From a virus (taxonomy: Duplodnaviria; Caudoviricetes), in the IMG/VR virus record IMGVR_UViG_3300020472_000038, positions 1 through 52,228 of that record: a stretch of DNA of 52,228 nucleotides. The stretch is one strand, 5' to 3'. How positions within the stretch are numbered: position 1 is the stretch's first letter; every line of letters begins with the position of its first letter. Position numbers and translations under genes: made by a program. Below are positions 1 to 52,228 of this stretch, piece by piece. Below the pieces are notes generated by a model that was not told the origin of the DNA, did not search any database, and saw only the letters and a list, made by a program, of their open reading frames with translations.

Positions 1-2
1 TT

Positions 3-734
3 ATCCGATTTTTACCGGCACCAGAAGGTGAAGACTTGCCATGGGCAAGAATCTGGAATCATGGTTTTCAGGGGCCAGGTGGCTGGTATATTGAAAACTC
101 TTTGACTACTCTTGGTCAGAAAGATCCAGTAAGTGAACATAATTCCACACTTTGGAATTCTGGTATTGAGGCAAACAAAGAGGTTGCCCGTAAACAGAAA
201 CGTAGATTGAATTACACATCTAATGTGTATATCATCAAAGACCCAGCTCATCCTGAGAATGAAGGTCAAGTCAAACTTTATCGTTTCGGTAAAAAAATCT
301 TTGACAAGATTAATGACCTAATGAATCCAGAGTTTGAAGATGAGAGTCCAGTAAATCCATTTGACCTTTGGACAGGTGCGAACTTCAAGATGAAGATTCG
401 TAAAGTAGAAGGTTATTCCAATTACGATAAGTCTGAGTTTGAAGCTCCTAGTGTACTTCTTGAAGATGAAGCTCGTCTGGAAGAAATCTGGAAGTCGGAA
501 AGCTCTTTAAAAGAGTTGGTGAGTGAAGACAAGTTCAAGTCATTTGATGAACTCAAAACTAAACTGGATCGTGTTCTTGGTTTGGGTAGTGAGTTCTCTC
601 CTACACCTAAGACTGTAGATGTTCCATTTGATGGTGGTAAACCTTATACGGCTCCACCTAAACCAGCTGCTACTGCAACTGATGATAGTGATGAATCTAT
701 GGAGTATTTTCAGAAATTAGCTCAAGAAGCTTAA
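3..734 (+). CDS. gp32: Single-stranded DNA-binding protein, T4 gp32 family (5'-truncated by window edge)
   Basis: Frame open from window start: IRFLPAPEGEDLPW...HGFQGPGGWYIENSLTTLGQKDPV...GKKIFDKI...PFDLWTGANFKMKIRKVEGYSNYDKSEF, acidic C-tail ending YFQKLAQEA; typical gp32 motifs of marine T4-like phages. Confidence 0.97.
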   Translation: MRFLPAPEGEDLPWARIWNHGFQGPGGWYIENSLTTLGQKDPVSEHNSTLWNSGIEANKEVARKQKRRLNYTSNVYIIKDPAHPENEGQVKLYRFGKKIFDKINDLMNPEFEDESPVNPFDLWTGANFKMKIRKVEGYSNYDKSEFEAPSVLLEDEARLEEIWKSESSLKELVSEDKFKSFDELKTKLDRVLGLGSEFSPTPKTVDVPFDGGKPYTAPPKPAATATDDSDESMEYFQKLAQEA

Positions 735-744
735 TCAATTAAAA

Positions 745-773
745 CTAGTGGGAGCTGAATAAGTTCTCACTAG
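745..773. terminator. Hairpin between convergent gp32 and tape-measure genes; probable intrinsic terminator
   Basis: CTAGTGGGAGCT-gaata-AGTTCTCACTAG 12-bp stem (two G-U pairs on +, two A-C mismatches on -); TTTT follows on the minus strand. Confidence 0.55.
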
Positions 774-3616
774 CCATTCTGTAGTGCTCTTACTGTGGAT
801 TCATTAGTTCTTGTGGGTTCGGGCATAGAAACTGCTGTAGTTTGACTACTTTGTACACTATTATCTACATTATTATTGTTGATGATAACTGGTTGTCCAC
901 CACCAGTTCCTGCTAATGCATTTTCTTGTGACTTATTAACAAGGGTCGTTGCTTTCTGATTTGCGAGTTCACCTTGTACAAAAGTTCCCTCTGTCAAACC
1001 GGCCTTCTTCAATTCTAAAGCCTTACCTCTCATCCCTGCTATTTTCTTCGCATTTCTAATTTTGGATCTGTCTACTTTACCCTTAATATTATATTTTGCT
1101 TTTAACTGCGCTTTAGTCATACCTTCAGCATATATTTCATCATCATCGGGTTGTTCTGCTATCCTCTTTGCAGTTTTAGTCAGTTCAGCACCAGAAGCAC
1201 TTTGTAACGCAGCATTAATTGTAGTAGCATCTATTCTTTTGAAGGATTGCATTCCTTCACCTAATGCCTTTATTCCTATAGCAACTTCTTGTAAATGTTT
1301 TGGATCTTTAATCTTTTCAGTGGCCATACTTAGTGCACCAATGAAAGATTCAAATGATGTTTCCTTGCCAGGAGTCCAATTATTTCCAACTATTGAAGCC
1401 ATATCTAAGCCGGAAAAGGTGTCCATTGCTTTTCCTAATGGTGTTAAACCATCTGCAACCTTTTGCATCTCTGCAGGTGAAGCCATTTGACCCAATTTTT
1501 CTGAACTTAAAAGATCAAAGAAAATTTCTAATGTTGATTTACCAAAAGTACTTTCATCAACTATCTTGGCAATATCTACACCAGAAAATCCAGACATTGC
1601 TTTACCAAACGGGCCGAGTCCTTCAGCAAGATTGTTCAAATTATCTGCATTAATTTTAACTTTTGAATCTCCTATCTTGGCTATAACCTTAATAAAGGAT
1701 TCTATATCAGTATCACCACCAAAGAAACCACCTTTCATTTCAAAACCAGCAAATGCAGATATTCCCTCTCCTAGAGGCCCCAAGCCTTCTCCAAGTTGTT
1801 TTAATCTTGCCGCATCAATATCTTTATCTTTTGATAATTCAATTATCGTATCAATAGGACTTTTAACACCAAAGAAAGAACCAAGGCCTTCCATAACCCC
1901 ACCAATTACACCAAGAATACTTCCAACTCCAAAGGCAGCAATTCCCGCACCTATACCTGCAATTCCTTTACCAAGATCAATTAATTTATCTGAATCAAGG
2001 TCTTTTAATTGTTCAAACATTCCTTTACCGATGCCACCAATGAAGCCACCGATACCTTGTCCAAGATTAGTAAGAAGGCCTTTGAGTGCACTACCATCTA
2101 AACCTATCATTTTTCCTATTGCTGCAATTCCTTCAGCTGCAAGTAACCCCAAAGAAAAAGCTGAAATACCGGCACCTATTGCACCCATACCCAAGACCGC
2201 GACCTTCACTCCTGCAGGCCCAGCAAACCCAAGAGCACCCGCAGCTACCAACAATCCTCCAAGTACTGCAACACTTATTCCTGAAAATGCTTCAAAGGTG
2301 TTTGAAAGTAATGTATTAAGAGACTTACCATCCAATCCAATCAAAGCACCAAGTGATGCAAATCCTTCAGCTGCAAGAATACCAAGTGTGAAAGCAGCAA
2401 CACCACCACCTATCGCGCCCATACCTTTCATAATAGCTTTTACTCCACCTTTTACTGCACCAACAGCTACTCCACCTATCAACAATGCCCCAAGAGCTTT
2501 AGAATCCACTCCACCAAATGCACCAAAAACATTAGTCATCAATGTAGCAAGATTTTTTCCATCCAATGCAATTAAATCTCCAAGTTTTGCAAATCCTTCA
2601 GCTGCAAGAATACCAAGAATAAAAGCAGCAACACCACCACCAATTGCACCCATACCTAACATCACTCCTACTTTACTGACTTTGAACTTTTCCAATCCGA
2701 TAGCAGCTCCTATAATTGAAGCCATAACTACCAAATCAGTTCCAGAAAATGCACCAAAGACATTCTTTATAAGTGTATTCAACATCTTACCATCGAAACC
2801 CGCAAGTTCAGCTATTTTACCTGCACCTCCTAGTGCTAATATGAATGCACCAACACCAGCACCAATTGCAGTCATACCTAATACTACTCCTGCTTTGGTG
2901 GTTTTAGTTTTTTCCAATCCTACAGCAGCTGCTATAATTGAAGCCATAACTACTAAATCAGTTCCAGAAAATGCACCAAAGATATTCGTTACAAGTGTAT
3001 TCAACATCTTACCATCAAATCCTGCAAGTTCAGCTATTTTACCTGCACCTCCTAATGCTAATATAAATGCACCAATACCAGCACCTATTGAACCCATACC
3101 CAATATCACTCCTGCTTTTGTGGTTTTGGTTTTTTCCAATCCTATAGCAGCTCCCATTACTGCTGCTAGAACCACCAAATCAGTTCCAGAAAATGCACCA
3201 ATGGTATTTTCTACAAGAGCCTTTAAGGATTTACCATCAAAACCCGCAAGTTCAGCTATTTTACCTGCACCTCCTAATGCTAACATAAATGCACCAATAC
3301 CTGCAGCGATTGATCCCATTCCTATAATAAAACTCGGGCCAATCTTTGATACCGCCTTACCTATTGAACCAATACCAGCACCAATACCACCGAGAAGTCC
3401 TGCAATTAATCCACCTTGTTTTTTATCTGATTGAACTGCACCACCAACACCCGCCTTGAGAGTAGCAAGGATATCCTGTTGGATTTTCTTACTTTCTTTC
3501 GCGTCTCTTGCAGCTTCTTGTTCACGTTCTATATCTGAAGAATCTTTCTTTACAGGTTTTTTAAGAGTAGTGTCTATTGTTTTTAACGATTCAACTACAT
3601 CTTTTAAGTTTGCCAT
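770..3616 (-). CDS. Tape-measure-like / baseplate hub tail-length determinator (gp29 position), 948 aa
   Basis: Gly/Ala-rich hydrophobic helical repeats, C-terminal PVIINNNNVDNS motif typical of T4-like gp29 equivalents, directly downstream of gp26/gp51-like genes. Confidence 0.75.
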   Translation of the reverse strand: MANLKDVVESLKTIDTTLKKPVKKDSSDIEREQEAARDAKESKKIQQDILATLKAGVGGAVQSDKKQGGLIAGLLGGIGAGIGSIGKAVSKIGPSFIIGMGSIAAGIGAFMLALGGAGKIAELAGFDGKSLKALVENTIGAFSGTDLVVLAAVMGAAIGLEKTKTTKAGVILGMGSIGAGIGAFILALGGAGKIAELAGFDGKMLNTLVTNIFGAFSGTDLVVMASIIAAAVGLEKTKTTKAGVVLGMTAIGAGVGAFILALGGAGKIAELAGFDGKMLNTLIKNVFGAFSGTDLVVMASIIGAAIGLEKFKVSKVGVMLGMGAIGGGVAAFILGILAAEGFAKLGDLIALDGKNLATLMTNVFGAFGGVDSKALGALLIGGVAVGAVKGGVKAIMKGMGAIGGGVAAFTLGILAAEGFASLGALIGLDGKSLNTLLSNTFEAFSGISVAVLGGLLVAAGALGFAGPAGVKVAVLGMGAIGAGISAFSLGLLAAEGIAAIGKMIGLDGSALKGLLTNLGQGIGGFIGGIGKGMFEQLKDLDSDKLIDLGKGIAGIGAGIAAFGVGSILGVIGGVMEGLGSFFGVKSPIDTIIELSKDKDIDAARLKQLGEGLGPLGEGISAFAGFEMKGGFFGGDTDIESFIKVIAKIGDSKVKINADNLNNLAEGLGPFGKAMSGFSGVDIAKIVDESTFGKSTLEIFFDLLSSEKLGQMASPAEMQKVADGLTPLGKAMDTFSGLDMASIVGNNWTPGKETSFESFIGALSMATEKIKDPKHLQEVAIGIKALGEGMQSFKRIDATTINAALQSASGAELTKTAKRIAEQPDDDEIYAEGMTKAQLKAKYNIKGKVDRSKIRNAKKIAGMRGKALELKKAGLTEGTFVQGELANQKATTLVNKSQENALAGTGGGQPVIINNNNVDNSVQSSQTTAVSMPEPTRTNESTVRALQNG
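2100..3330 (-). repeat. Tandem 74-78 aa (222-234 nt) repeats in tape-measure gene
   Basis: aaatcagttccagaaaatgcacc at 2733, 2955, 3177 (222-nt period); ccttcagctgcaag at ~2130, 2364, 2595; protein unit GMGxIGAGxxAF...GxDGKxL...FGAFSGTDLVV. Confidence 0.9.
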
Positions 3617-3636
3617 TTATCTCTCTGTTATTTGTT

Positions 3637-3840
3637 TTAACTACTAGCTTTACGATTTTGTTCTTCAATCTTAGCATTTTCTTCAAATACCCATTGTGAT
3701 AATAATTCTGAATATAGTGTTCTTTCGTAGGGCAACATATCCTCGATTTCCGTCAAACTCCAATTATGATGTTGGCACATAGCAAAATTTTGTAAATAAT
3801 ATGCTTCAAGTGAGTTATGACTTAGGCAGATGCGAAAAAA
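3637..3840 (-). CDS. gp51-like baseplate hub assembly protein; first ATG only at 3780 (47 aa), frame open from the slippery site at 3840
   Basis: Manual translation FFRICLSHNSLEAYYLQNFAMCQHHNWSLTEIEDMLPYERTLYSELLSQWVFEENAKIEEQNRKASS*; resembles the small cyanophage gene after gp26 (NFALMQHHKYSLTELENM.PWER pattern); missed by the ORF track. Confidence 0.8.
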   Translation of the reverse strand, partial: FFRICLSHNSLEAYYLQNFAMCQHHNWSLTEIEDMLPYERTLYSELLSQWVFEENAKIEEQNRKASS

Positions 3841-4529
3841 GATGCAAGGCCCTCTAAAGTTTCCGTTTCAGTCTTTCCACACTTTGGACAAGTATACTCA
3901 ATATCCTGTTTCAGTTTTGGTAAAGATTCATAATAATCTTGAAGCTTTTTAAATTGACTAGAATTTAATGAATTTACAAACTCATCTAATTCTTTTTTAG
4001 TATGGTCTTGAGCAGAAAATACGTCTTCACCTTGAATAATTTCAAGTAAACTATTTCTAATTATTTCCATAACTAAGTCTATTTGATTTTTATTTTCAGT
4101 TCCAATAACATCATCTATACCTGGCGGACTCAAACGAACCATAATATCATCTGTTATTTCTACTAAATCAGAAGAATTTTTATTTTGAACCACCTCTACT
4201 TTAGAAAGGTCTATATCAACTTTAATGATTTCACCACATTCGTGCTCAAAAGAAATTGTACTTATATCTCCAACTGCTTTTCCTCTAATGTTAAGAAAAA
4301 GATATTCAAGGTCAATCATTGCAATGCTATTAACATTAAAATTTTCAGTTAATACACATTGAGTTATTATTTGTTTTATGGCTTTCGCCATATCTTTTTC
4401 TTCTCCACCCTCTAAAGCTGTTAGAAGAATTTTTTCTTCCTTGACTAAAAATGGTCTGTATTCAATTTTTTTACCAGATGCCGGTAATTCTAAATCATAT
4501 CGTACAGTATTTAATTTTGGCAAAGCCAT
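3822..4529 (-). CDS. gp26: Baseplate hub subunit / assembly chaperone gp26
   Basis: MALPKLN...YRPFLVKEEKILL...DLEYLFLNIRGKAVG...CPKCG...LEGLASFF; GGAG RBS upstream. Confidence 0.92.
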   Translation of the reverse strand: MALPKLNTVRYDLELPASGKKIEYRPFLVKEEKILLTALEGGEEKDMAKAIKQIITQCVLTENFNVNSIAMIDLEYLFLNIRGKAVGDISTISFEHECGEIIKVDIDLSKVEVVQNKNSSDLVEITDDIMVRLSPPGIDDVIGTENKNQIDLVMEIIRNSLLEIIQGEDVFSAQDHTKKELDEFVNSLNSSQFKKLQDYYESLPKLKQDIEYTCPKCGKTETETLEGLASFFASA

Positions 4530-4563
4530 AATGTTCTCCTTTTCAAATCATTATTTTATAATA

Positions 4564-5106
4564 TTAGTTAAGTAACATCCATTTTCTATATTTGAATGTT
4601 ACACTAAGTTTTAGTATTTCTCCTCCCATCGCGTGACCCAGCGCAATTTCACCAACTGCAGAAGGATATGCTTCTCTCAACTCTATCTTATAACTGTCTG
4701 TTGCTGTTTGAAAATCAGTTGCATCATTTGATAATCTAGTTATATTAATTGTTGAAACAAAATTGTTCCAATAGTTAACATTACCAGTTTTAACATTTAT
4801 TATATTTCTTTGCCATCTGTCAAAAAACCTTTTTACAGTAAATTTATCATCTAAAATAAAAGATAATGCAGCTTCTGTAAATGTTTCCCTATAGGGTATT
4901 TCTCTTGGTGGGCCATATATATCCTGTGCATTAGAAGCTATACCTTTAGTTGGAAGTGAAACAGCTTCACATAGATATTGTAAATTCTCGTTTACAGCTG
5001 TTGACAGTCCTTGAGGAAGATCGCTGAAGGTTACTTGATATCTATTCCCTTTAGCAAAATCATCAATTCTACTTCTTAGTGTATCTATTGTAAATACATC
5101 TGCCAT
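4564..5106 (-). CDS. gp54: Baseplate tail-tube initiator (gp54 / tail-tube fold)
   Basis: NRYQV..., CEAVSLP, YGPPREIPY, FFDRWQ, LREAYPSAVGEIAL, LSVTFKYRKW: gp19/gp54 tube-fold motifs. Confidence 0.75.
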   Translation of the reverse strand: MADVFTIDTLRSRIDDFAKGNRYQVTFSDLPQGLSTAVNENLQYLCEAVSLPTKGIASNAQDIYGPPREIPYRETFTEAALSFILDDKFTVKRFFDRWQRNIINVKTGNVNYWNNFVSTINITRLSNDATDFQTATDSYKIELREAYPSAVGEIALGHAMGGEILKLSVTFKYRKWMLLN

Positions 5107-5705
5107 TAATAGTATTCCCTGCTGTCATTCCAGACAACACTTTTCTTCTGTTTTTGAAATCTTTCAACTGGTAGGAATATTGCTATTTCCCACTCGTCTG
5201 CGTTTATCCTTACGGTATTTGAACGTATATTAGTACCAAGATATCTTTTTACACAAGGTACTGCTCTTCCAAATCCCTTCAGTAAATTATACGTTATTTT
5301 CAATCTTGTAGTTGCATCATATTTATTATTAGTTGCATACTCTTTCAATTGATCCATAAGGATTGCTCTATCTCTTGGTGGAATATAATGTAGATTCAAA
5401 CCATAAAATCCACCTTTAGCTTTCTCAAATGGAAACACTAAAGGATACATATCCCAATAAGGTAGTTTTTTAGCAAACTTTGGGTCATATTTGTAGAATA
5501 ACATTTTTCCAAGTGTTGCACTACCTTCTTCTTCTCTTTTAAGAAGTTGTGTTGGAGTTACTGCTCTCATACGAGCACTTGCACTTGCTTGTTTGACCTT
5601 TTCTCTAAACCAATCCCCAGCTGCCCTAGCTTTTGCAGTTGCTTTTGAGGTTTTAATTGATGATTTGAGTGTATCTAAAAAACCTTCTTGTGATAATTGT
5701 GCCAT
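5106..5705 (-). CDS. gp2: DNA end protector protein
   Basis: YDPKFAKKLPYWDMYPLVFP, GFYGLNLHYIPP, CVKRYL, AIFLPVERF. Confidence 0.95.
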   Translation of the reverse strand: MAQLSQEGFLDTLKSSIKTSKATAKARAAGDWFREKVKQASASARMRAVTPTQLLKREEEGSATLGKMLFYKYDPKFAKKLPYWDMYPLVFPFEKAKGGFYGLNLHYIPPRDRAILMDQLKEYATNNKYDATTRLKITYNLLKGFGRAVPCVKRYLGTNIRSNTVRINADEWEIAIFLPVERFQKQKKSVVWNDSREYY

Positions 5706-5709
5706 AATA

Positions 5710-6132
5710 CTAATATTTAGTTAAATCTTGTTCAGTTAATATTTGCCATTTCCAATTTCTGGTTTCACAGTAAGCCATAGCTGCTTTCCACTTTGCTTCA
5801 TTAATTCCCCAAATTTTGACCTCTTTGATAAATCTTCTTCTATTTGGTTTTGGTTTGGGTGGTTTAGTTTGAACCTTTGATTTGATTTCTATAAGAGTTT
5901 CACCTTGTGCAGTCTTTACCCAAAAGTCGGGAAAATAACGATGGACTTTACCATCTATAGGAGAACGATAGGGGATAACAATCTCTTCACTTGACCACTT
6001 TAAAATAGAATCATTACCATCAAGATACCTCATGAATCTCAATTCCAATCCAGAGCGATGAACTATTTTACGGTAATCTCCTTTGTATTTGGATATGTTT
6101 TTTGGTTTATATAATCCTTTCTTGATCCTCAT
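5710..6132 (-). CDS. gp4: Head completion protein (PD-(D/E)xK nuclease fold)
   Basis: YKPKNISKYKGD...RSGLE..WSSEEIVIPYRSPIDGKVHRYFPDF...IEIK...NEAKWKAA...ILTE; ATG at 6132 preferred over 6165. Confidence 0.95.
   Translation of the reverse strand: MRIKKGLYKPKNISKYKGDYRKIVHRSGLELRFMRYLDGNDSILKWSSEEIVIPYRSPIDGKVHRYFPDFWVKTAQGETLIEIKSKVQTKPPKPKPNRRRFIKEVKIWGINEAKWKAAMAYCETRNWKWQILTEQDLTKY
5714..5721 (-). promoter_or_regulatory. T4-type late promoter variant ACTAAATA upstream of gp2
   Basis: tatttagt on + strand, 8 nt before the gp2 ATG. Confidence 0.55.
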
Positions 6133-6139
6133 ATAAATA
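6132..6139 (+). promoter_or_regulatory. T4 late promoter TATAAATA upstream of gp48
   Basis: Exact gp55 consensus in the divergent gp4/gp48 region; TATAAATT on the minus strand at 6177-6184 may drive gp4. Confidence 0.7.
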
Positions 6140-6193
6140 TGTAGTAACGGCATAAAACCGCCCAAATAGAATTTTTAATTTATAGGAATAGTA

Positions 6194-7195: not shown

Positions 7196-7196
7196 T

Positions 7197-7781
7197 ATGT
7201 CATCAGAATTTTTTGCAAATTATCCAAGAATAGCTTATGATATATCTGGTGATAATTCTACAGCTCCGAATTATACTGTTGCTGTCAATTTAATGATTAG
7301 AAACAAACTAAAAGAAGCAGTTGAAGATGATATAACAGTATATTATCCTTATGTTGTTCCAGAAGGTATGCGACCAGATGTTCTTTCTTATCAATATTAT
7401 GGAGATACAATTTATACTTGGACAATATTTCTTGCTAACAACATAGTAGATCCTTATTGGGAATGGCCCCTCAGTTACAAAGATTTTAGAGAATATGTGT
7501 CAGACAAATATGGTTCAATAGAAACAGCTAAATCTCAAATTCATCATTATGAATATATTGCAAGAGCTAGAGCTGAGAAAACAGGGACTAGTGATCCAGT
7601 TCCAGAGTATAAATTAGAAATTGATTATCAAACTTATACAGAGACAGATGTTGATGAAAGAGAAATAATCTATGCATACAATTATGAAAAAGATTTAAAC
7701 GAAACAAAAAGAGAAATTCAATTAATTGATGCCGTATACATACAATCTGTCCAAGATGAAGTTAGAGGATTATTTAGATAA
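7197..7781 (+). CDS. gp53: Baseplate wedge subunit (LysM-like)
   Basis: FFANYPRIAY, RPDVLSYQYYGD, WTIFLANNIVDPYWEWPL, IHHYE, NETKREIQLI. Confidence 0.95.
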   Translation: MSSEFFANYPRIAYDISGDNSTAPNYTVAVNLMIRNKLKEAVEDDITVYYPYVVPEGMRPDVLSYQYYGDTIYTWTIFLANNIVDPYWEWPLSYKDFREYVSDKYGSIETAKSQIHHYEYIARARAEKTGTSDPVPEYKLEIDYQTYTETDVDEREIIYAYNYEKDLNETKREIQLIDAVYIQSVQDEVRGLFR

Positions 7782-9730: not shown

Positions 9731-9733
9731 TAT

Positions 9734-44177: not shown

Positions 44178-44205
44178 CAGTTAAAAGAATAATAGGAGTA
44201 AAAAA

Positions 44206-45159: not shown

Positions 45160-45189
45160 TATAATAAGTTAATTTTATTATAATTTGTA

Positions 45190-46071
45190 ATGAAAACAAA
45201 TCTTTATGTTGTTACTGGTGGAATTGGTAAACAAGTTTTATTTTCTAATTTAATTGAAGATTTAGCAAAAAAGGATGATACTTTAATATCAATTGCAAGT
45301 GTATATCCTACACTATTTGTTAATCATCCTTTAGTTTATTCTTCTATTGATCTTTGGGATATAGACCATTTAAATATTGAACATAAAACCTTTGATCCCA
45401 AATTAATTGACAAATATTTCCATAATATTATAGGTTTTGATCCTTTTTTTTCAAATTATCTTAAATTAGAAGATCACATAATAAATTCTTGGCGTGAAGG
45501 ATTATCTTTAACTCCCACCCAAAACACATACACAGATATTGTGGTTAATAGTGATAATGCAAAAACTTATAATGGGTTTTTACATATTGAGGGAAATGAG
45601 AGATTTGTTATTGTACAATTAAAGGGTGGAACATACATTAATAATAAAAGTAGAAACGAGAAACTTAAAGAAATTAGAGACTATTCTGACACATATCAAT
45701 TAATTTCTGCAATAGCTAATCGTTTTTATGATATTCATTTTTTGATTGTGAGAACTACAGAAGATGTGTATGATGAAAGAATTGATAAATTACCAAATGT
45801 TGGATATGCGGAAAATATTCCATTACTTGACATCCAATATCTGGTTAATAAGTGTTTAACTTTTATTTCTATTGATAGTTGTATTCAACATTTTGCAGTT
45901 AATAAAGAAAACTTAAAAAAAGGAATAGTATTGTGGGGTAATATTGTCGGCCCCCAAATAAATACTATTGGACATAAATATAACACTAATCTAATGTCAG
46001 AAAAAATAAATGAACTATATATTCATGAAGATGTTATATTAGAAAAACTTGAAAATATTTTATCACAATAA
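45190..46071 (+). CDS. Putative glycosyltransferase (GT-B, GT9/heptosyltransferase-like)
   Basis: N-terminal GGIGKQV, C-terminal FISIDSCIQHFA...GIVLWG...GHKYNTN; visibly more AT-rich than neighbours. Confidence 0.75.
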   Translation: MKTNLYVVTGGIGKQVLFSNLIEDLAKKDDTLISIASVYPTLFVNHPLVYSSIDLWDIDHLNIEHKTFDPKLIDKYFHNIIGFDPFFSNYLKLEDHIINSWREGLSLTPTQNTYTDIVVNSDNAKTYNGFLHIEGNERFVIVQLKGGTYINNKSRNEKLKEIRDYSDTYQLISAIANRFYDIHFLIVRTTEDVYDERIDKLPNVGYAENIPLLDIQYLVNKCLTFISIDSCIQHFAVNKENLKKGIVLWGNIVGPQINTIGHKYNTNLMSEKINELYIHEDVILEKLENILSQ

Positions 46072-46103
46072 TTACTATTATCTAATTTTTTAAAAAAGGA
46101 AAT

Positions 46104-46349
46104 ATGGCTGATCAAAACAGCGCGCCCCTCATAGCTAATAGTGCTGGTGTTTTTGCTCCAGACGCGGATTTTCCAAAAGGATATACCAGAGTTACTGCTC
46201 ATCAATTTAGAAGAGAGGCAGAGTATCCAAGTATACAGGATCTTGTTGTGGCCATTCAGGAAAAATTGGAAGGTGACTCTGATGCATGGGATGCTCTGGT
46301 AACAGCAAGAGCGGCGATTAAATCAAAATATCCAAAAGCATCATCATAA
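46104..46349 (+). CDS. Small tail-fibre-associated protein (81 aa)
   Basis: RREAEYPSIQDLVVAI...AIKSKYPK motif common next to phage fibre genes; AAGGA RBS. Confidence 0.7.
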   Translation: MADQNSAPLIANSAGVFAPDADFPKGYTRVTAHQFRREAEYPSIQDLVVAIQEKLEGDSDAWDALVTARAAIKSKYPKASS

Positions 46350-46393
46350 AATCAAATTAAATTTTTAAAGAATTTCTCTTAATCTTTTCCTTT

Positions 46394-46401
46394 ACTAAAT
46401 A
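46394..46401 (+). promoter_or_regulatory. Late promoter variant ACTAAATA
   Basis: Intergenic, upstream of neck-region genes. Confidence 0.6.
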
Positions 46402-46437
46402 ATAAAAGAAAAGGTTTTAACTATAGAGGGATTCTTG

Positions 46438-48180
46438 ATGGCGCTGACTTTACACAAACAAACTGAAAATTTTGTATTGGATCAAGGGGCCACCTTTATC
46501 AAGACTTTTACCGCCAAAAATACAGCAGGTGGTAATGTGGTCATATCTTCCGGCACTACAGAGGCCAAGTTAAGACAATCCATAGACTCTAGTAACAATA
46601 TACACGCCTTTTCTACATCCGTTTCTGGATCAAATGTTACTATTTCAATGACAGCAACAAATACTGCCAACATTTCTGAAGATCGCAGATATGTGTATGA
46701 TGTGGAATTTACTCAATCTGATACCACTACTGTAGAAAAAATAGTAGAAGGTATTGTAACTATATCTCCGCATGCAGGCGATAGAGACTTTCCAGATATT
46801 ATAACAGAGAGTATAGCTGATGGTCAATGGGGGAATACCAAATGGACTGACTTTGTTAGAAATGATGGTTCAAAAGATAGGTTAGTTACTTGGAAAGGTT
46901 CGGGAACGGAACTCGAATGGGGAGACAGCGGTGAGGACAGATGGTATGAAATGGAAGGCCCTCATCATCAAGATATTGAGGAAATGGCAGATGTAGTAGT
47001 AGCAGAAGGAACATACTCTAGTCATGAAGCGTGGGATCAAGCATTGATGAGATTGGTAGAATATCCCAATACCTACAATAGTGATACTGATACTTGGAGT
47101 ACTGGTAGTTATGCTGCTCTTTCTGATGGTGAAGCAAGAAGTGGAGATCCATTTACTGTTTGTTCAGTATTTTCATCACCCTTTAATCCAAACACAGATG
47201 AAGATTATGATCCAGACAATCATGGAACAATTTGGGCTGCAGCACCATATCATTCTAGTAGATCGCGAGGGGGTGGATGGAGGTTACAAACTAAACATAA
47301 TAGACTCAGCTTTCAGATAGGACATTGGAATAGGAATCAAGATAACTACAATCGTGTCGATGGATACCTTAAACCAGAATTTGGAGTATCAGCAAATGTT
47401 TATTTTGAGACACATAATCCTGACTGTTATCAAGATCCATTTGAAATAGGTAATCAACGTACAAACATACATCAAACAATGAATCCTAATGGAGTTGATG
47501 GAGATGTGCGTATGTGGTATCACATCACTTGTGTATATAATGGTGGGCCTGTGGGATATTGGAAACCTAGTACAAGATCTGAAAGTGAGGAAGAGTTAAT
47601 ACAAAACATTAAGGACTCTTTTAAATTCTACCAAACAAATTTATTGACAGGGAAAGTACACGAAATAAAATGGTATCATATACAAGCGAGTAATAAACAT
47701 GATTACTTAGGATTTATTCAAGGAGTAGGATACAGGGGGGATAGACAAGAAGTGGGTTCGACAGGAACATTTTTTGGTGCATTCTGTGATGGATCTCAAA
47801 ATGCATTTGTATTTAAATCGAATTGGGGTGGTACATGGGTAACAAATACAGCATTATCTCACTCAGACTTACAGGGTGACACTTCAGAAACTAAAGCTAG
47901 TCAGCCTTTTAGAGTAAATGGATTCTCTATGGATCCGCTTGGATGGGCAACAAAATACAATAAAGATGCTACAAACACATGGGTATGGAGTCCAAGTCAT
48001 CATCCAAATAGAACTGAAGATTCTTCTGAAAATAAAAAAAATGAATATCCTAATATAACATCTGGTGCTTCAGATAGTAATGATCTTAGAGCTCTTGGAT
48101 CAATGGATGACAAAGGTTATTTTTACACTATGGCAGACAACTCATACTGGGCAAATAACTATCCAACAGATACAACGTAA
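46438..48180 (+). CDS. Hypothetical protein: DQGATF-type N-terminal domain plus ~465-aa Trp-rich, possibly lectin-like extension
   Basis: First ~113 aa paralogous to 48190..48534; WYHITCVYNGG resembles a LamG/ConA motif. Confidence 0.75.
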   Translation: MALTLHKQTENFVLDQGATFIKTFTAKNTAGGNVVISSGTTEAKLRQSIDSSNNIHAFSTSVSGSNVTISMTATNTANISEDRRYVYDVEFTQSDTTTVEKIVEGIVTISPHAGDRDFPDIITESIADGQWGNTKWTDFVRNDGSKDRLVTWKGSGTELEWGDSGEDRWYEMEGPHHQDIEEMADVVVAEGTYSSHEAWDQALMRLVEYPNTYNSDTDTWSTGSYAALSDGEARSGDPFTVCSVFSSPFNPNTDEDYDPDNHGTIWAAAPYHSSRSRGGGWRLQTKHNRLSFQIGHWNRNQDNYNRVDGYLKPEFGVSANVYFETHNPDCYQDPFEIGNQRTNIHQTMNPNGVDGDVRMWYHITCVYNGGPVGYWKPSTRSESEEELIQNIKDSFKFYQTNLLTGKVHEIKWYHIQASNKHDYLGFIQGVGYRGDRQEVGSTGTFFGAFCDGSQNAFVFKSNWGGTWVTNTALSHSDLQGDTSETKASQPFRVNGFSMDPLGWATKYNKDATNTWVWSPSHHPNRTEDSSENKKNEYPNITSGASDSNDLRALGSMDDKGYFYTMADNSYWANNYPTDTT

Positions 48181-48189
48181 GGAATATAA

Positions 48190-48534
48190 ATGGCACTGAC
48201 TTTAAGTAAAAGAACCATAAATTTTGTAATGGATCAAGGGGCTACCTTTGAAAAGGTAATCTATGCACAAAACTCTGCAGGAGGAAATGTCACAATTTCT
48301 ACAGGTACTTGTGCCGCTAAGATGCGACAATCTACATATTCTGGTAACAATATCCACACTTTTTCAACTTCTGTTGCTGGATCGAATGTCACAATTTCTA
48401 TGACTGCAACAAATACTGCAAACGTTGCTGCAGATCAGTATGTATATGATGTTGAATATACTCAATCAGATGGAACTACTGTAGAGCGGGTTTGTCAAGG
48501 AATTATAACCGTATCACCAGAGTCTACAAAATAA
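48190..48534 (+). CDS. Small pre-neck virion protein (DQGATF domain)
   Basis: DQGATF, AKMRQS, ISMTATNT, YVYDVE, RVCQGIITVSP; typical of the gene upstream of gp13 in marine T4-like phages. Confidence 0.8.
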   Translation: MALTLSKRTINFVMDQGATFEKVIYAQNSAGGNVTISTGTCAAKMRQSTYSGNNIHTFSTSVAGSNVTISMTATNTANVAADQYVYDVEYTQSDGTTVERVCQGIITVSPESTK

Positions 48535-48545
48535 GGATTTAACAA

Positions 48546-49577
48546 ATGACACAGCCTACAACCAGAACTACATTTAAAGATTATTGTAAAAGAAAATTGG
48601 GCCATCCAGTTATTGAACTAAATCTTGATGATGATCAGATTGAAGATACTATTGATGACGCAGTAACTTATTGGCAAGAATATCATTTTGATGGTACTCA
48701 TCCAGAATTTGTTAAAAAACAAATTACTGCTTCAACTCAACTGGTTTCTTCACAGTCTGGAACTTTTTCTGCAGGTGAAACTATTGAGGGAGGAACGAGT
48801 GGAATAAGAGCTACAATTAATGATTATATCAGCTCAAATACTACGATAAGGTATTCAAAACCAACTACAAAAAACAATGCTAATGCTATAGCAAAGGGAG
48901 ATGGAAATACATATTATACTGACACTACCACAACATGGACTGCAAGTGAAACCATCACAGGATTAACAAGTGGAGCAACAGCAACAGTACATTCTTCTAC
49001 AGCTCAAACACTTGGTGATATAGACAATCATTATATTTCTTTAGATGAGAGTTATATTGGAATCACAGGAGTTATACCACTTACCGAAAACTTGAGTGGT
49101 AGTACAAATATGTTTTCAGTCAATTATCAGTACGCGCTGAATGATCTTTATACAATGGGTGCAGCTGGTGATATGAAAAACTATGTGTTTACTCAGCAAT
49201 ATCTTTCTACTATTCAAAACCTTTTTTCTGGATTACCTAGATTCAGATTCAATCGACATAGAGATAGATTATATCTAGATATAGATTGGTCTGCAGATCT
49301 TAAAATAGATGATTTTGTTGTAATTGAAGCTTATGCATCAATGAATCCAGAAACGTATACAGATGCCTATAGTGATATTTTCCTTAAAAAATATTGTACA
49401 GCTTTGATGAAAAAACAATGGGGTATGAATCTTATAAAATTTGAAGGGGTTCAATTGCCAGGGGGTGTTACGTTAAATGGAAGACAACTATATGATGACG
49501 CAGTTACAGAACTTGAAAAATTAGAAGTTGAAGGAAGGCTAGAGTATCAGCTACCCGATGACTTCTACATGGGTTAG
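48546..49577 (+). CDS. gp13: Neck protein
   Basis: DYCKRKLGHPVIELNLDDDQIED, EYHFDG, FLKKYCTALMKKQWG.NLIKFEGVQLPGGVTLNG. Confidence 0.97.
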   Translation: MTQPTTRTTFKDYCKRKLGHPVIELNLDDDQIEDTIDDAVTYWQEYHFDGTHPEFVKKQITASTQLVSSQSGTFSAGETIEGGTSGIRATINDYISSNTTIRYSKPTTKNNANAIAKGDGNTYYTDTTTTWTASETITGLTSGATATVHSSTAQTLGDIDNHYISLDESYIGITGVIPLTENLSGSTNMFSVNYQYALNDLYTMGAAGDMKNYVFTQQYLSTIQNLFSGLPRFRFNRHRDRLYLDIDWSADLKIDDFVVIEAYASMNPETYTDAYSDIFLKKYCTALMKKQWGMNLIKFEGVQLPGGVTLNGRQLYDDAVTELEKLEVEGRLEYQLPDDFYMG

Positions 49578-49586
49578 AGGATATAA

Positions 49587-50558
49587 ATGGCAACCAATCA
49601 TTACTTCAATCACTATGGAACAGATACACCAGATCAAAAATTAGTTGAAAACATCGTAATTGAGTCGATTAAATCTTTTGGTATTGATGTTCACTATATG
49701 CCTAGGACTGAAGTTAATACAGATTCTATCTATGGAGAAGATCGTATTTCTAAGTTTGAAGACGCTCGAATGGTAGAAGTTTATATTAAGAGTATAGATG
49801 GATTTGAGGGAGATGGTACATTTGTAAGTAACTTTGGACTAGAAGTAAGAGATCAAATTACTTTTACAATTGCTCGTAGAAGATTTCAAGAATTAAATTT
49901 TGAAACTGGAAATAGAGATAAAGAACCACTAGAGGGTGATCTTATTTTCTTTCCTTTATCTGACTCTCTTTTTGAAATCAAGCATGTACAAGATACGAAT
50001 GTTTTTTATCAAATGGGTGGACTACAAACTTTTGATTTAGTTTGTGAACTGTTTGAATATGGAGATGAAGCAATTGATACTGGTATTGAGGAGTTGGATA
50101 AGATAGAAAGAGAAGAATCCTATTCAATAAAATTCACTCTAGGTACTGGAGCTGGTACATTTACAGTCGGTGAACAAGTATATCAAGGTTCTACTGGATA
50201 TGCAAATTCTTCAATTAAAGGAGAAGTTTTTGATTGGAATTCTAGTACAAGTCTTCTTACAGTTGGAAATATTGTTGGAACTTTTGATGAAGATAATCAA
50301 ATGTATGAATATCCGTTTTCTATAGCATTAGAAGATGATACTACACTTCTGTTGGAAGATGGTACAACAAATACTCCAAACTCTTCAACTGAAGGTAAAC
50401 CCTTCTTTGAATCTGGTGCATCGTATGCCACAACATCTTTTGATGATAAAGTAATATCAAATGATGCTTATGCAAACAATGTTGGAATTGAAACTGTTGC
50501 TGATGGGATTTTAGATTTTTCAGAGGGTAATCCATTTAGTGAAGGAACAGGGTACTAA
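49587..50558 (+). CDS. gp14: Neck protein
   Basis: ESIKSFGIDVHYMPR, FGLEVRDQ, PLEGDLIFFP, FEIKHV, FYQMG, CELFEY, ILDFSEGNPF. Confidence 0.96.
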   Translation: MATNHYFNHYGTDTPDQKLVENIVIESIKSFGIDVHYMPRTEVNTDSIYGEDRISKFEDARMVEVYIKSIDGFEGDGTFVSNFGLEVRDQITFTIARRRFQELNFETGNRDKEPLEGDLIFFPLSDSLFEIKHVQDTNVFYQMGGLQTFDLVCELFEYGDEAIDTGIEELDKIEREESYSIKFTLGTGAGTFTVGEQVYQGSTGYANSSIKGEVFDWNSSTSLLTVGNIVGTFDEDNQMYEYPFSIALEDDTTLLLEDGTTNTPNSSTEGKPFFESGASYATTSFDDKVISNDAYANNVGIETVADGILDFSEGNPFSEGTGY

Positions 50559-51616
50559 TGTTAGGATCTACCTTTTATCATCAAACTATAAGAAAATATG
50601 TAGCAGTGTTTGGAACTCTTTTCAATGATATTAATATTGAAAGGAAAAATTCAAGTGGTGTTGTTGTTGAGAAAATGAAAGTTCCTCTTGCGTATGGCCC
50701 CAAACAAAAGTGGTTACTTGCTGTTCAAGATACCACTGCGGATAGAAAAGTTGTAGCGACAAGAACTCCAAGGATGGGGTTTGCTATGACAGGAGTTACT
50801 TATGACTCTGCTAGAAAATTGAATACGATTGGTAGAAATATTGCAGCCAACACTTCTTCTACTTCTACCAACATGAATACAATGTATAATCCTGTTCCTT
50901 ACAATTTTGAGTTTTCATTATTCATACTTGTTAAGAATGCTGAAGATGGAACACAAATTTTAGAGCAGGTACTCCCCTATTTTACACCAGAGTTTACTGT
51001 TACTGTCAATACAATTCCCGATATGAACATCAAGGCAGATATTCCTATTACGTTGAACTCTGCTGATGTAGCAGATGAGTATGAGGGTGATTTATCAACA
51101 AGAAGAACTATTACTTGGACTCTTTCATTTACACTTAAAGGGTTTATCTATCCAAATATTTCTTCTGGTCAAGTTATTAAAACAATTGAAGTTAATTTCC
51201 GAATTCCTGGCGGAGATACAGAAATTGAACTTCCAGACTTTATTATACATGAAGATAGTGATTTTGATACTACTAACTATATACTATTAGATGGAACAAA
51301 TTTAGTTATTTTTACATTACTAGAAGAAAGTCAAAGTTCTACTTCAGTAGGTGATCTTAGACTCCTTTTGGAAGATGGGGCTTTTGTGTTGAATGAAGAA
51401 AGTGATAATACATACAGAACATATAATAGAGCAAGAATTATGAACGAAAAAGCTACTGATGGTATACAAGATGCTACAATCAAGTCTCGTTACACAGTCG
51501 TTCCTACACCTCTTTCTACAACAGCAGACTCTGATTATGGTTTCTCAGAAACTTTTGAATTTTTTGATGAAGGTAAATATAATGATCCAACCGATGGTGA
51601 GGATATAGCAACATGA
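50558..51616 (+). CDS. gp15: Tail sheath stabilizer / tail terminator
   Basis: FYHQTIRKYVAVFGTLFNDI, VPLAYGPKQK, PRMGF, PVPYN, QILEQVLPYFTPEF. Confidence 0.96.
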   Translation: MLGSTFYHQTIRKYVAVFGTLFNDINIERKNSSGVVVEKMKVPLAYGPKQKWLLAVQDTTADRKVVATRTPRMGFAMTGVTYDSARKLNTIGRNIAANTSSTSTNMNTMYNPVPYNFEFSLFILVKNAEDGTQILEQVLPYFTPEFTVTVNTIPDMNIKADIPITLNSADVADEYEGDLSTRRTITWTLSFTLKGFIYPNISSGQVIKTIEVNFRIPGGDTEIELPDFIIHEDSDFDTTNYILLDGTNLVIFTLLEESQSSTSVGDLRLLLEDGAFVLNEESDNTYRTYNRARIMNEKATDGIQDATIKSRYTVVPTPLSTTADSDYGFSETFEFFDEGKYNDPTDGEDIAT

Positions 51617-52053
51617 AGGATGTGATGCCTATGAATGTAGATGATCACTTAGATGAAATGTTAGGTATTGTAAACAAACCTAAGAAAGAAATTGTTAAGG
51701 CAGAACGATTAGTTCCTACTATTTCAGTTGATGATAGTGGCGATAGTGAAATAGATTTCCAATATGTGAGAGAGAACCTTTACAATCTCATAGAACGAGG
51801 ACAAGATGGTTTGGAAGAAATGCTTGAAATTGCCAAAAGTTCTGAACATCCTCGAGCGATGGAAGTTTTTGGACAGTTAATAGGAAAACTTACTGAAACA
51901 AATAAAGAATTGTTAAATTTACATAAAACAAAAAAAGACATTTCAGCTGAAGATTCTGGCCCCAAAAATGTCTCCAATAATCTTTTTGTGGGTTCAACCG
52001 CTGAATTACAAAAATTCCTTAAAACAGGGAAAACAATAAAAGAAAATGAATAA
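51613..52053 (+). CDS. gp16: Terminase small subunit
   Basis: DFQYVRENLYNLIERG, SEHPRAMEVFGQLI, NNLFVGSTAELQKFLK. Confidence 0.95.
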   Translation: MKDVMPMNVDDHLDEMLGIVNKPKKEIVKAERLVPTISVDDSGDSEIDFQYVRENLYNLIERGQDGLEEMLEIAKSSEHPRAMEVFGQLIGKLTETNKELLNLHKTKKDISAEDSGPKNVSNNLFVGSTAELQKFLKTGKTIKENE

Positions 52054-52064
52054 AGAGAAGTGTG

Positions 52065-52228
52065 ATGTCCACCAAATCTTATCTTGGAAACCCTAATCTA
52101 AAAGGCATAGGTGTCAGCGTAGATTGGACACCCGAAGCAGTTGAAGATTACAAGAAGTGTATGGAATCCCCACTATACTTCATTAAAAAATATGTTCAAA
52201 TTGTAAATGTTGATCGTGGTCTAGTTCC
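52065..52228 (+). CDS. gp17: Terminase large subunit (3'-truncated by window edge)
   Basis: Manual translation MSTKSYLGNPNLKGIGVSVDWTPEAVEDYKKCMESPLYFIKKYVQIVNVDRGLV; typical gp17 N-terminus, follows gp16. Confidence 0.93.
   Translation, partial: MSTKSYLGNPNLKGIGVSVDWTPEAVEDYKKCMESPLYFIKKYVQIVNVDRGLV

What the first reader, a model, noticed from the sequence alone, without database searches (positions are those of the whole stretch)
1..52228. CCNGG and CCGG sites survive only when overlapped by GGC/GCC: possible footprint of a motif-specific DNA modification
Seen: every CCWGG I found by eye (about 26, e.g. near 75, 1368, 4120, 6905, 9386, 11321, 12231, 20333, 21293, 22100, 29139, 33282, 44890, 51206) is either GCCWGG or CCWGGC. 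CCGG/CCSGG sites behave the same way (GCCGG or CCGGC, e.g. near 15, 999, 1409, 4481, 10101, 19015, 42823), with one exception at ~45148 (ACCGGGG). In an AT-rich genome such flanks should be a minority. Established: in coliphage CAjan the DpdA-inserted 7-deazaguanine dPreQ0 is placed at GA and GGC motifs, and GC/RGCY cytosine methyltransferases exist (M.CviPI, M.CviJI). Inference: the phage modifies a base within GGC/GCC (or GpC), which shields overlapping restriction sites, while unshielded sites have been purged. The modification target would then be readable from sequence alone. The responsible enzyme is not in this window.
Basis: partly seen in the sequence, partly recalled or inferred. Interest (0 to 1): 0.88.

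Follow-up and report, generated by a model that had tools for sequence, protein, structure and literature searches.

The report
Restriction sites kept only beside GpC
In this fragment of a marine T4-like phage, short sequences of the kind that bacterial restriction enzymes cut have been erased everywhere except where a neighbouring G places their first C in a G-C step, most likely because the phage chemically modifies that C, so the target of the modification can be read from the sequence alone.

Summary
All 26 CCWGG, 8 of 9 CCSGG and 26 of 27 CCGG sites carry a 5' G or 3' C. The unflanked forms are 0, 1 and 1 against 22.8, 7.8 and 28.5 expected from synonymous-codon shuffles. The kept sites are mostly unavoidable Pro-Gly dipeptides recoded to CCN-GGC. 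GGWCC is also absent (0 vs 35).

The window is a ~29% fragment of a marine T4-like phage (gp32, baseplate, tail fibres) and holds no modification gene.

The cultured relative Methylophilales phage Melnitz shows the same rule genome-wide: 0 unflanked CC(N)GG against about 126 expected. It encodes DNA polymerase, C5-cytosine methyltransferase, TET/JBP dioxygenase and P-loop kinase in a row. That is the published phage cluster type whose methyltransferases target GpC[C/T]. Eighty IMG/VR loci carrying that methyltransferase also obey the rule (5 of 180 CCNGG unflanked). Four large or complete relatives without it do not.

The dPreQ0/DpdA lead is not; a GpC-directed cytosine modification fits best. 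The enzyme of the window's own lineage was not found, because only fragments were available.

The parts
1..52228 (.). Whole window: genome-wide recoding footprint. HCC(N)GGD and GGWCC are purged; forms overlapped by GCC/GGC are kept.
   Evidence: This is a fragment (CheckV 29%) of a marine T4-like phage.
75..51210 (.). The 26 CCWGG sites. All have a 5' G or a 3' C. Starts: 75, 1368, 4120, 6797, 6905, 9386, 11321, 11390, 12231, 16929, 20333, 21293, 21298, 22100, 23180, 24422, 29139, 29495, 30342, 33282, 39227, 43653, 44676, 44890, 49458, 51206.
   Evidence: list with flanks; unflanked 0 vs 22.8; flanked 26 vs 6.3.
6380..45152 (.). The 9 CCSGG sites, 8 of them flanked. Starts: 6380, 9469, 10316, 15381, 15714, 20486, 24365, 31464, 45148.
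   Evidence: unflanked 1 vs 7.8.
15..46553 (.). The 27 CCGG sites, 26 of them flanked. Starts: 15, 999, 1410, 2169, 4481, 6381, 8807, 9183, 9469, 9674, 10101, 10316, 15381, 15715, 16077, 19015, 20487, 20709, 24366, 30338, 31465, 32366, 42823, 44705, 44954, 45148, 46550.
   Evidence: unflanked 1 vs 28.5; flanked 26 vs 13.9.
45147..45154 (+). The only unflanked site, ACCGGGGC. It is codons TTA-CCG-GGG near the 3' end of ORF 44206-45159.
   Evidence: the one Pro-Gly of 30 with neither flank.
39..51856 (.). Other C-initial palindromes that survive only with the flank: CCATGG at 39, 29678 and 40972 (all GCCATGG); CCTAGG at 49701 (GCCTAGG); CTCGAG at 51851 (CTCGAGC).
36..734 (+). gp32 single-strand DNA-binding protein, used as a taxonomic anchor.
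   Evidence: Pfam PF08804, E 1.4e-38. 53-64% aa identity to marine Kyanoviridae.
18156..20048 (+). gp6 baseplate wedge protein, used as the anchor to find relatives.
   Evidence: Pfam PF21379/PF21871. 42% aa identity to Melnitz and 41% to Pelagibacter phage Mosig.

Best explanation
The window is part of a marine T4-like phage whose DNA is modified after replication at GpC steps, seen here as GCC on one strand and GGC on the other. The most likely route is a phage C5-cytosine methyltransferase, whose 5mC is then hydroxylated by a TET/JBP dioxygenase and possibly elaborated further.

The modified base is the outer C of any CC(N)GG, CCATGG or similar site that is preceded by G. One modified strand appears to be enough to block the host nucleases that target these sites.

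Selection has therefore removed every copy of such sites that lacks the flank. Where the protein sequence forces the site (Pro-Gly = CCN-GGN), it has recoded the neighbouring synonymous position to create the flank: GGC as the glycine codon, or a preceding codon ending in G. GGWCC cannot be overlapped by GpC and has been removed entirely (Gly-Pro is always GGS-CCN).

Shown: the sequence rule, its codon-level mechanism, and its co-occurrence with the methyltransferase/TET cluster in relatives. Inferred: that this phage carries such an enzyme, the chemistry of the modification, and that restriction enzymes are the selective agent.
For: (1) Rule and statistics in the window.

(2) Codon mechanism.
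- 30 of 35 CCNGG sites are Pro-Gly dipeptides.
- 19 of those 30 use GGC, although GGC is only 105 of 1587 Gly codons overall.
- 10 more follow a codon ending in G, and 1 is the exception.
- 34 of 34 Gly-Pro dipeptides are GGS-CCN, although GGW makes up 87% of Gly codons.

(3) Melnitz, complete at 141,548 bp.
- HCCWGGD 0 vs 65.6, HCCSGGD 0 vs 11.5, HCCGGD 0 vs 48.8, GGWCC 0 vs 61.9.
- Flanked sites are kept: 68 CCWGG, 4 CCSGG and 15 CCGG.
- Pro-Gly is flanked in 70 of 70 cases.

(4) Melnitz encodes, directly after DNA polymerase B:
- a C5-methyltransferase (PF00145, E 7e-55);
- a Tet_JBP dioxygenase (PF12851, 43 bits against a cut-off of 34.9);
- a 427-aa protein of unknown family;
- a P-loop kinase-like protein.
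Burke et al. 2021 (PMC8256090; passages read) describe clade II/B clusters with exactly this layout: DNA polymerase upstream of the C5-MT, and a GT or P-LK downstream of TET. They report specificity GpC[C/T], with one subclade methylating any GpC.

(5) The specificity can be read from Melnitz.
- The exemption holds for CTGCAG (unflanked 0 vs 39.4; flanked 14 vs 19.8; all 14 flanked) and for CTTAAG (0 vs 19.2; 3 vs 7.8).
- It does not hold for CGCG (0/38.7; 1/15.9), CGWCG (1/55; 0/19.4) or CACGTG (0/9.7; 3/14.4).
- That pattern is GCY.

(6) 80 IMG/VR loci with a 75-100% identical methyltransferase (667,550 bp) were counted.
- CCNGG 180, of which 5 unflanked.
- CCGG 61, of which 9 unflanked.
- GGWCC 24; GGSCC 277.
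- 64 of the 80 also have the TET homologue.

(7) Relatives without the cluster do not show the rule.
- AG-345-L05 (149 kb, no PF00145) purges CCGG without exemption: 2 vs 69.4 in total, flanked 1 vs about 18. It keeps CCNGG.
- Mosig shows no rule.
- HTVC008M depletes only WCCGGW.
- G033 (154 kb, 85% complete) has neither the methyltransferase nor the rule in its locus L047.

(8) Window clade pool, compared with 180 rule-negative loci. The pool is the window, G157 and 80 loci selected on CCNGG only, about 1.03 Mb.
- CCATGG: 3 of 69 unflanked, against 62% in the rule-negative loci.
- CACGTG: 0 of 34, against 53%; these fall into 18 distinct contexts, all flanked.
- CTCGAG: 0 of 12, against 44%.
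- Sites that are not purged have equal unflanked fractions in both pools: CAATTG .57/.56, CAGCTG .52/.53, CTGCAG .49/.50, CTAG .72/.70.

(9) In the window no palindrome containing GpC is depleted, while many without it are purged.
Against: No modification gene was found for the window's own lineage.
- PF00145, PF12851 and PF01702 are absent from the window.
- PF00145 was found in only 2 of 208 fragment records around the window's genes. One is the rule-positive G146. The other is the unrelated rule-negative G213.
- PF12851 was found in 0 of 48 rule-positive fragments.
- G157 is rule-positive (66 kb; CCNGG unflanked 2 vs 43) and contains DNA pol, RecA and helicase. It has no methyltransferase between them, only a DFPY (adenine-type) PF01555 enzyme.
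- All of these are fragments, at most 37% complete.

Other points against:
- In Melnitz AGCT contains GCT on both strands yet is depleted (132 vs 374). It is equally depleted in relatives that lack the methyltransferase.
- In the window the strong CCTGA/TCAGG depletion (23 vs 80) is not relieved by a 5' G.
- A SAM-lyase-like gene (PF23780) sits in a rule-positive relative. It would work against a SAM-dependent enzyme if both were expressed together.
- S-CRM01 and S-B05 carry a 38-39% identical C5-methyltransferase without TET and show no exemption.
- GpC is self-complementary, so the sequence cannot say whether the C or the G is modified.
- The match between Melnitz's methyltransferase and the assayed clade II enzymes rests on gene order, not on alignment.
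Confidence: 0.6

Rival explanations
1. The same shielding logic applies, but the chemistry is different in this lineage. One option is a guanine replacement such as a 7-deazaguanine inserted by DpdA at RGC. Another is N4-methylcytosine from a beta-class methyltransferase. A third is an enzyme family not yet described.
For: GCY on one strand is RGC on the other, so the footprint fits a G-modifying enzyme equally well (reasoning). No C5-MT or TET was found in about 0.9 Mb of rule-positive fragments of the window's clade, including the DNA pol-RecA neighbourhood of G157. One rule-positive relative (L161:2721-3641) has a PF01555 methyltransferase with an unusual TCPPY motif; its nearest solved homologue, 2ZIE, has TSPPY. 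The clade's exemption also covers GCA (CACGTG), which is broader than Melnitz's GCY.
Against: The TGT/DpdA family is absent from the window, from complete Melnitz, and from 48 of 48 rule-positive fragments. The TCPPY enzyme occurs in 1 locus, with one 29%-identical homologue, among all loci held. Burke's subclade IIb C5-MTs already methylate any GpC, so a broader exemption needs no new chemistry.
Confidence: 0.17
2. The protective GpC/GCC modification is laid down by a host methyltransferase, not by the phage. The phage has adapted its sequence to the host's orphan methylase.
For: No phage enzyme was found in the window's lineage. The Melnitz paper notes that the host H5P1 also encodes a type II DNA methylase (PMC9004378, passage read).
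Against: The rule tracks the phage-borne methyltransferase across 81 loci and Melnitz. It is patchy among close relatives: L006-L009 at 73% gp6 identity lack it, while L010-L016 at 70-72% have it. That pattern fits a mobile phage gene.
Confidence: 0.08
3. There is no modification. The nucleases that select against CC(N)GG simply cut G/C-flanked sites poorly, that is, they have a flank preference.
For: The enzyme family around CCGG/CCNGG includes members with flank specificity (recalled). HTVC008M, which has no methyltransferase, shows depletion limited to WCCGGW.
Against: The same exemption applies to unrelated sites: CCATGG, CACGTG, CTCGAG and, in Melnitz, CTGCAG and CTTAAG. In phages that lack the Melnitz-type MT/TET cluster and are under CCGG pressure, flanked sites are purged too: AG-345-L05 1 vs about 18 and S-B05 12 vs 55. 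C at -1 and G at +1 are not exempt.
Confidence: 0.05
4. An agent acts on single-strand HCC half-sites, for example a nickase. Only closely opposed pairs are lethal, which would give a distance-dependent purge.
For: A first count in the window suggested a decay with spacing in both orientations.
Against: Most of that signal came from embedded CCGG, CCNGG and GGWCC. In Melnitz HCCWWGGD is not depleted (42 vs 39.9) while GGWWCC is (3 vs 55.9). The CC(N)GG rule and the GGWCC purge occur separately in relatives (L010, L012, L014, G157).
Confidence: 0.02

Closest known systems
Phage C5-MT / TET (5mYOX) / glycosyltransferase or P-loop-kinase hypermodification clusters from marine metaviromes (Burke et al. 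2021, PMC8256090; bioRxiv 10.1101/2023.12.21.572611)
   Same: The target motif is GpC[C/T], or any GpC in one subclade. The cluster lies downstream of DNA polymerase in clade II/B. Melnitz and 64 of 80 related IMG/VR loci have this layout.
   Different: Those papers assayed the enzymes in E. coli and left the role in restriction evasion open or doubted. Here the evidence is an evolutionary footprint in the phage genome. The cluster itself was not seen in the window's own lineage. The clade's exemption also covers GCA.
dPreQ0 in coliphage CAjan, placed by DpdA at GA and GGC
   Same: It is a sequence-specific, partial replacement of a base that protects against restriction, and GGC is one of its motifs.
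   Different: No TGT/DpdA-family gene was found in Melnitz, the window or 48 fragments. The exemption includes GCT/AGC and GCA/TGC contexts.
M.CviPI, the GpC-specific C5-methyltransferase of a Chlorella virus (mentioned in Burke et al.)
   Same: It has a dinucleotide GpC target, is virus-encoded, and is an orphan enzyme.
   Different: It belongs to a eukaryotic algal virus. No footprint of this kind is reported in the passages I read. The sequence relationship was not tested.
Classical restriction-site avoidance in phage genomes
   Same: Many short palindromes are purged relative to codon-preserving nulls. Examples are TTCGAA, ATCGAT, ACATGT, GGTACC, CTTAAG and TACGTA, each with 0 copies.
   Different: Here avoidance depends on one flanking base, and forced sites are rescued by synonymous recoding of the flank.

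Membership tests
Phage C5-MT/TET GpC[C/T] hypermodification system | C5-cytosine DNA methyltransferase gene (PF00145) in the phage genome | tested here: inconclusive
   Absent from the window, which is only 29% of a genome. Found in 2 of 208 fragment records near the window's genes. Present in the relative Melnitz and, by selection, in the 80 IMG/VR loci.
Phage C5-MT/TET GpC[C/T] hypermodification system | Tet_JBP dioxygenase next to the methyltransferase | tested here: inconclusive
   Absent from the window and from 48 of 48 rule-positive fragments. Present in Melnitz and in 64 of 80 methyltransferase loci.
Phage C5-MT/TET GpC[C/T] hypermodification system | Target motif GpC followed by C/T (or any base in one subclade) | tested here: met
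   This is indirect and comes from footprints. GCC holds in the window. GCC, GCT and GCA hold in the clade pool. GCC and GCT hold in Melnitz, but GCG and GCA do not.
Phage C5-MT/TET GpC[C/T] hypermodification system | 5mC, 5hmC or derivatives actually present in virion DNA | not testable with these tools
   Needs LC-MS, EM-seq or nanopore.
DpdA / 7-deazaguanine DNA modification (CAjan type) | DpdA (TGT-family, PF01702) gene | tested here: not met
   0 hits in the window, 0 in complete Melnitz, and 0 in 48 rule-positive fragments. The controls were positive in 14 of 14 genomes.
DpdA / 7-deazaguanine DNA modification (CAjan type) | preQ0 synthesis genes (folE, queD, queE, queC) | not tested
   No search was run.
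Restriction-site avoidance | Palindromic sites depleted against a null that keeps protein sequence and codon usage | tested here: met
   for the window; for Melnitz.

The most novel reading that the evidence does not exclude
The phage genome and a very short-motif (GpC) modification have co-evolved. Hundreds of synonymous positions have been recoded so that every unavoidable restriction-type site sits under a modified GpC. If so, the specificity of an uncultured phage's modification enzyme, and the repertoire of nucleases it faces, can be read from sequence alone. In the window's own clade the writer may not be the known C5-MT/TET pair. None was found in about 0.9 Mb of fragments, including the polymerase neighbourhood, and the exemption is broader (GCC, GCT, GCA). 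The clade may therefore use an undescribed GpC-directed DNA-modifying enzyme.
Probability: 0.25. Interest if true: 0.85.

Novelty: new variant of a known kind. Interest (0 to 1): 0.72.

Why it matters
The GpC[C/T]-limited cytosine hypermodification of marine phages was discovered by expressing metagenomic genes in E. coli. Its authors later wrote that so sparse a mark seems unlikely to give broad protection from restriction.

The footprint described here is evolutionary evidence that it does protect. The phage makes a sparse mark sufficient by deleting all sites it cannot cover and by recoding forced sites to bring them under cover.

Three practical consequences follow:
- It provides a purely computational read-out of modification motifs in uncultured phages: GCY in Melnitz-like phages and a broader GpC in the window's clade.
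- It identifies a cultured phage-host pair, Melnitz and its OM43 host, that carries the cluster and in which the idea can be tested directly.
- It warns that k-mer or codon-pair statistics of such phages are shaped by this constraint.

Tried and rejected
(a) An 'opposed HCC half-site / double-nick' model. It was suggested and rejected.

(b) GCT/AGC depletion as a mutational footprint of 5mC. It is equally strong in AG-345-L05, which lacks the methyltransferase, and is driven by AGCT.

(c) Walking from the window to the modification genes through IMG/VR. I walked upstream of gp32 and from the right end. Contigs break at the tail-fibre and early regions, and no methyltransferase was reached.

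(d) The one metagenome scan found a 140-kb rule-positive relative (L689). Its record cannot be searched. The 19.9 kb I held (DNA pol, RecA, helicase and 8.4 kb beyond) contains no methyltransferase.

(e) The megablast of the window against GenBank phages found nothing.

(f) The 63-aa ORF at 14531-14722 gave a weak TAGT hit (E 0.0096, below the cut-off). I did not pursue it, as it is probably chance.

(g) HTVC008M's partial CCGG flank effect turned out to be ordinary WCCGGW avoidance.

(h) search of earlier findings was not open.
Full report
**What the window is.** The record is a single 52,228-bp contig with GC 35.2%. It is 98% coding in 36 greedy ORFs, nearly all on the + strand. Pfam identifies these parts of the baseplate and tail-fibre module of a T4-like myovirus:
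- gp32;
- T4 baseplate proteins: gp51-like, gp53, gp5 OB domain, PAAR, gp25, gp6 and gp8;
- LtfC-like tail-fibre domains.

The nearest GenBank phages are marine Kyanoviridae: Methylophilales phage Melnitz, Pelagibacter phages Mosig and HTVC008M, and cyanophages. Identity is only about 40% (gp6) to 55-64% (gp32) at the amino-acid level. There is no nucleotide match. CheckV rates the record 29% complete.

**The observation.**
- 26 of 26 CCWGG, 8 of 9 CCSGG and 26 of 27 CCGG sites have G at -1 or C at +1.
- The one exception is at 45148.
- GCC is only 17% of NCC and GGC only 11% of GGN.

Compared with 1000 shuffles of synonymous codons within genes:
- HCCWGGD is 0 vs 22.8.
- HCCGGD is 1 vs 28.5.
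- HCCSGGD is 1 vs 7.8.
- The flanked forms are enriched: CCWGG 26 vs 6.3 and CCGG 26 vs 13.9.

All nine non-G/non-C flank combinations are empty, including C at -1 and G at +1. The avoided word is therefore HCC(N)GGD.

An unbiased k-mer scan added that GGWCC is absent (0 vs 35.3), while GGSCC (48 vs 9.7) and GGCC (85 vs 27) are enriched.

**Why the flanked forms are enriched.** 30 of the 35 CCNGG sites are Pro-Gly codon pairs, which cannot avoid CCNGG.
- 19 of those 30 use GGC, a codon that makes up 6.6% of glycine codons overall.
- 10 others follow a codon ending in G.
- 1 is the exception.

Likewise 34 of 34 Gly-Pro pairs are GGS-CCN, although 87% of glycine codons are GGW. The pattern is thus selection at synonymous positions. 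Removable sites were removed, and forced sites were given the flank.

**Distribution among relatives.** In IMG/VR loci found through gp6, gp32 and other window proteins, the rule is patchy and bimodal.
- Of 253 loci with at least 6 CCNGG, 67 have no unflanked site.
- Few loci lie between 0.2 and 0.5, and the main mode is at 0.5-1.0.
- Twenty-five loci at 84% aa identity or more to window proteins (162,894 bp) have 2 of 94 CCNGG unflanked, 23 of 79 CCGG unflanked, and 5 GGWCC.

Close relatives differ. L006-L009 (73% gp6 identity) lack the rule, while L010-L016 (70-72%) have it. The CCNGG rule, the CCGG rule and the GGWCC purge occur in different combinations (L010, L012, L142-L144, G157). This points to several separate selective agents with one shared exemption.

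**The link to a modification system: the footprint.** Melnitz is a cultured phage with a complete 141,548-bp genome, and it shows the same footprint genome-wide:
- HCCWGGD 0 vs 65.6;
- HCCSGGD 0 vs 11.5;
- HCCGGD 0 vs 48.8;
- GGWCC 0 vs 61.9.

All 68 CCWGG, 4 CCSGG and 15 CCGG sites are flanked. Pro-Gly is flanked in 70 of 70 cases, and Gly-Pro is GGS in 47 of 47.

**The link to a modification system: the genes.** Directly after its DNA polymerase, Melnitz encodes:
- a C5-cytosine methyltransferase (PF00145, E 7e-55);
- a Tet_JBP dioxygenase (PF12851, 43 bits, cut-off 34.9);
- a 427-aa protein with no family;
- a P-loop-kinase-like protein.

It has no TGT/DpdA-family gene.

Passages of Burke et al. 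2021 describe metavirome C5-MT/TET clusters. In their clade II/B, a DNA polymerase gene lies upstream of the C5-MT and a GT or P-LK lies downstream of TET. The methyltransferases methylate GpC[C/T], and one subclade methylates any GpC. GCC is exactly the exempting flank, and the methylated base would be the outer C of CC(N)GG.

The Melnitz paper (passages read) mentions only a 'type II DNA methylase (gene 5)'.

**Reading the specificity from the genome.** In Melnitz the exemption extends to other purged palindromes that start with CT, but not to those that start with CG or CA.
- CTGCAG: unflanked 0 vs 39.4, flanked 14 vs 19.8. All 14 carry the flank.
- CTTAAG: 0 vs 19.2 and 3 vs 7.8.
- CGCG: 0/38.7 and 1/15.9.
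- CGWCG: 1/55 and 0/19.4.
- CACGTG: 0/9.7 and 3/14.4.

That pattern is GCY, the published motif.

In the window's clade the exemption is broader. I pooled the window, G157 and 80 loci chosen on CCNGG alone (about 1.03 Mb). I compared the pool with 180 rule-negative loci of 2.15 Mb.
- CCATGG: 3 of 69 unflanked, against 62%.
- CACGTG: 0 of 34, against 53%. These form 18 distinct contexts, all flanked.
- CTCGAG: 0 of 12, against 44%.
- CGATCG: 0 of 4.
- Unpurged sites have identical unflanked fractions in both pools.

In the window itself the three CCATGG sites, the one CCTAGG and the one CTCGAG are all flanked. No GpC-containing palindrome is depleted.

**Association.**
- Eighty IMG/VR loci with a methyltransferase 75-100% identical to Melnitz's (667,550 bp) have 5 of 180 CCNGG and 9 of 61 CCGG unflanked, and 24 GGWCC against 277 GGSCC.
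- 64 of those 80 have the TET homologue.
- G146 was one of the only two PF00145 hits among the fragment records searched. It carries a 38%-identical methyltransferase after its polymerase and is rule-positive.

Relatives without a C5-methyltransferase gene:
- AG-345-L05 (149 kb) keeps CCNGG and purges CCGG completely, flanked copies included (2 vs 69.4).
- Mosig shows no rule, and HTVC008M depletes only WCCGGW.
- G033 (154 kb, 85% complete) has no methyltransferase, and its locus L047 has 25 of 46 CCNGG unflanked.

S-CRM01 and S-B05 carry a distant C5-MT without TET and show no exemption.

**What remains open.** I could not find the enzyme in the window's own lineage.
- PF00145 hit 2 of 208 fragment records.
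- PF12851 and PF01702 hit 0 of 48 rule-positive fragments.
- G157 (66 kb, rule-positive) has DNA pol, RecA and helicase without the cluster.
- The 19.9 kb I could read of a 140-kb relative has none either.

All of these are fragments. The module also sits at different places in different phages: after the polymerase, after RecA, and next to late genes in L294.

Because GpC is self-complementary, sequence alone cannot tell a C-modification at GCY from a G-modification at RGC. Only gene content argues for cytosine.

**Novelty.** My searches found no paper that describes restriction-type sites surviving only under a modification motif.
- 'restriction site avoidance' plus cyanophage returned 0 papers.
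- For 'restriction site avoidance', bacteriophage, methyltransferase and flanking, I saw the listing of 10 of 1,546 papers.
- The GpC/TET search is.

The 2023 preprint on the same system doubts that GpC-limited marks protect broadly. The system is known. The footprint, its codon mechanism and the cultured example appear to be new.

Noticed in passing
window, both strands (e.g. k-mer CCTGA/TCAGG): CCTGA/TCAGG is strongly depleted (23 vs 80 expected). The depletion is independent of the 5' flank (GCCTGA 2 vs 6.5). The word is not palindromic and the cause is unknown.
   Followed up: partly
window 14531-14722 (+): A 63-aa ORF between the PAAR protein and the next baseplate gene gives a sub-threshold Pfam hit to TET-associated glycosyltransferase (PF20691, E 0.0096, 16.3 bits against a cut-off of 27.5). 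This is probably chance.
   Followed up: no
window 5710-6165 (-): An ORF with a TnsA-like endonuclease N-terminal domain (PF08722, E 6e-22) lies inside the baseplate gene block. It is possibly a homing-type nuclease.
   Followed up: no
window 20048-28471 and 30258-37193 (+): Two giant ORFs (2807 and 2311 aa) sit in the baseplate/tail-fibre module. They were not scanned against Pfam.
   Followed up: no
L161:2721-3641; L092:8375-8983; L161:8678-8977: A rule-positive relative carries three notable genes upstream of gp32. One is a PF01555 DNA methyltransferase with an unusual TCPPY motif (nearest PDB entry 2ZIE, which has TSPPY). The others are a SAM-lyase-like protein (PF23780) and a SET-domain protein.
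   Followed up: partly
L227-L306 (Melnitz-like methyltransferase loci): The gene between TET and the P-loop kinase (427 aa in Melnitz, no Pfam family) is recognisable in only 3 of 80 loci, although the methyltransferase, TET and kinase are conserved. The tailoring step seems to vary between close relatives. The MT-TET module also sits at at least three different genomic positions (after DNA pol, after RecA, and beside late genes in L294).
   Followed up: partly
Melnitz, Mosig, HTVC008M, AG-345-L05, S-CRM01, S-B05 (whole records): AGCT is depleted 1.4- to 3.4-fold in all six marine T4-like genomes, whatever their methyltransferase content. Individual phages purge different sets of sites: GCGC is 0 vs 48 in AG-345-L05, GGSCC is 0 vs 20 in Mosig, and GATC is 23 vs 376 with CGCG 1 vs 54 in Melnitz. 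Melnitz has at least ten 6-bp palindromes at 0-2 copies despite a host with a streamlined genome.
   Followed up: partly
L689 (19,859 bases of a 140,268-base metagenome contig): This is a near-genome-length, rule-positive relative (CCNGG 7/0 unflanked, GGWCC 0). Its helicase is 90% identical to that of G157. The rest of the record could not be read or searched.
   Followed up: partly
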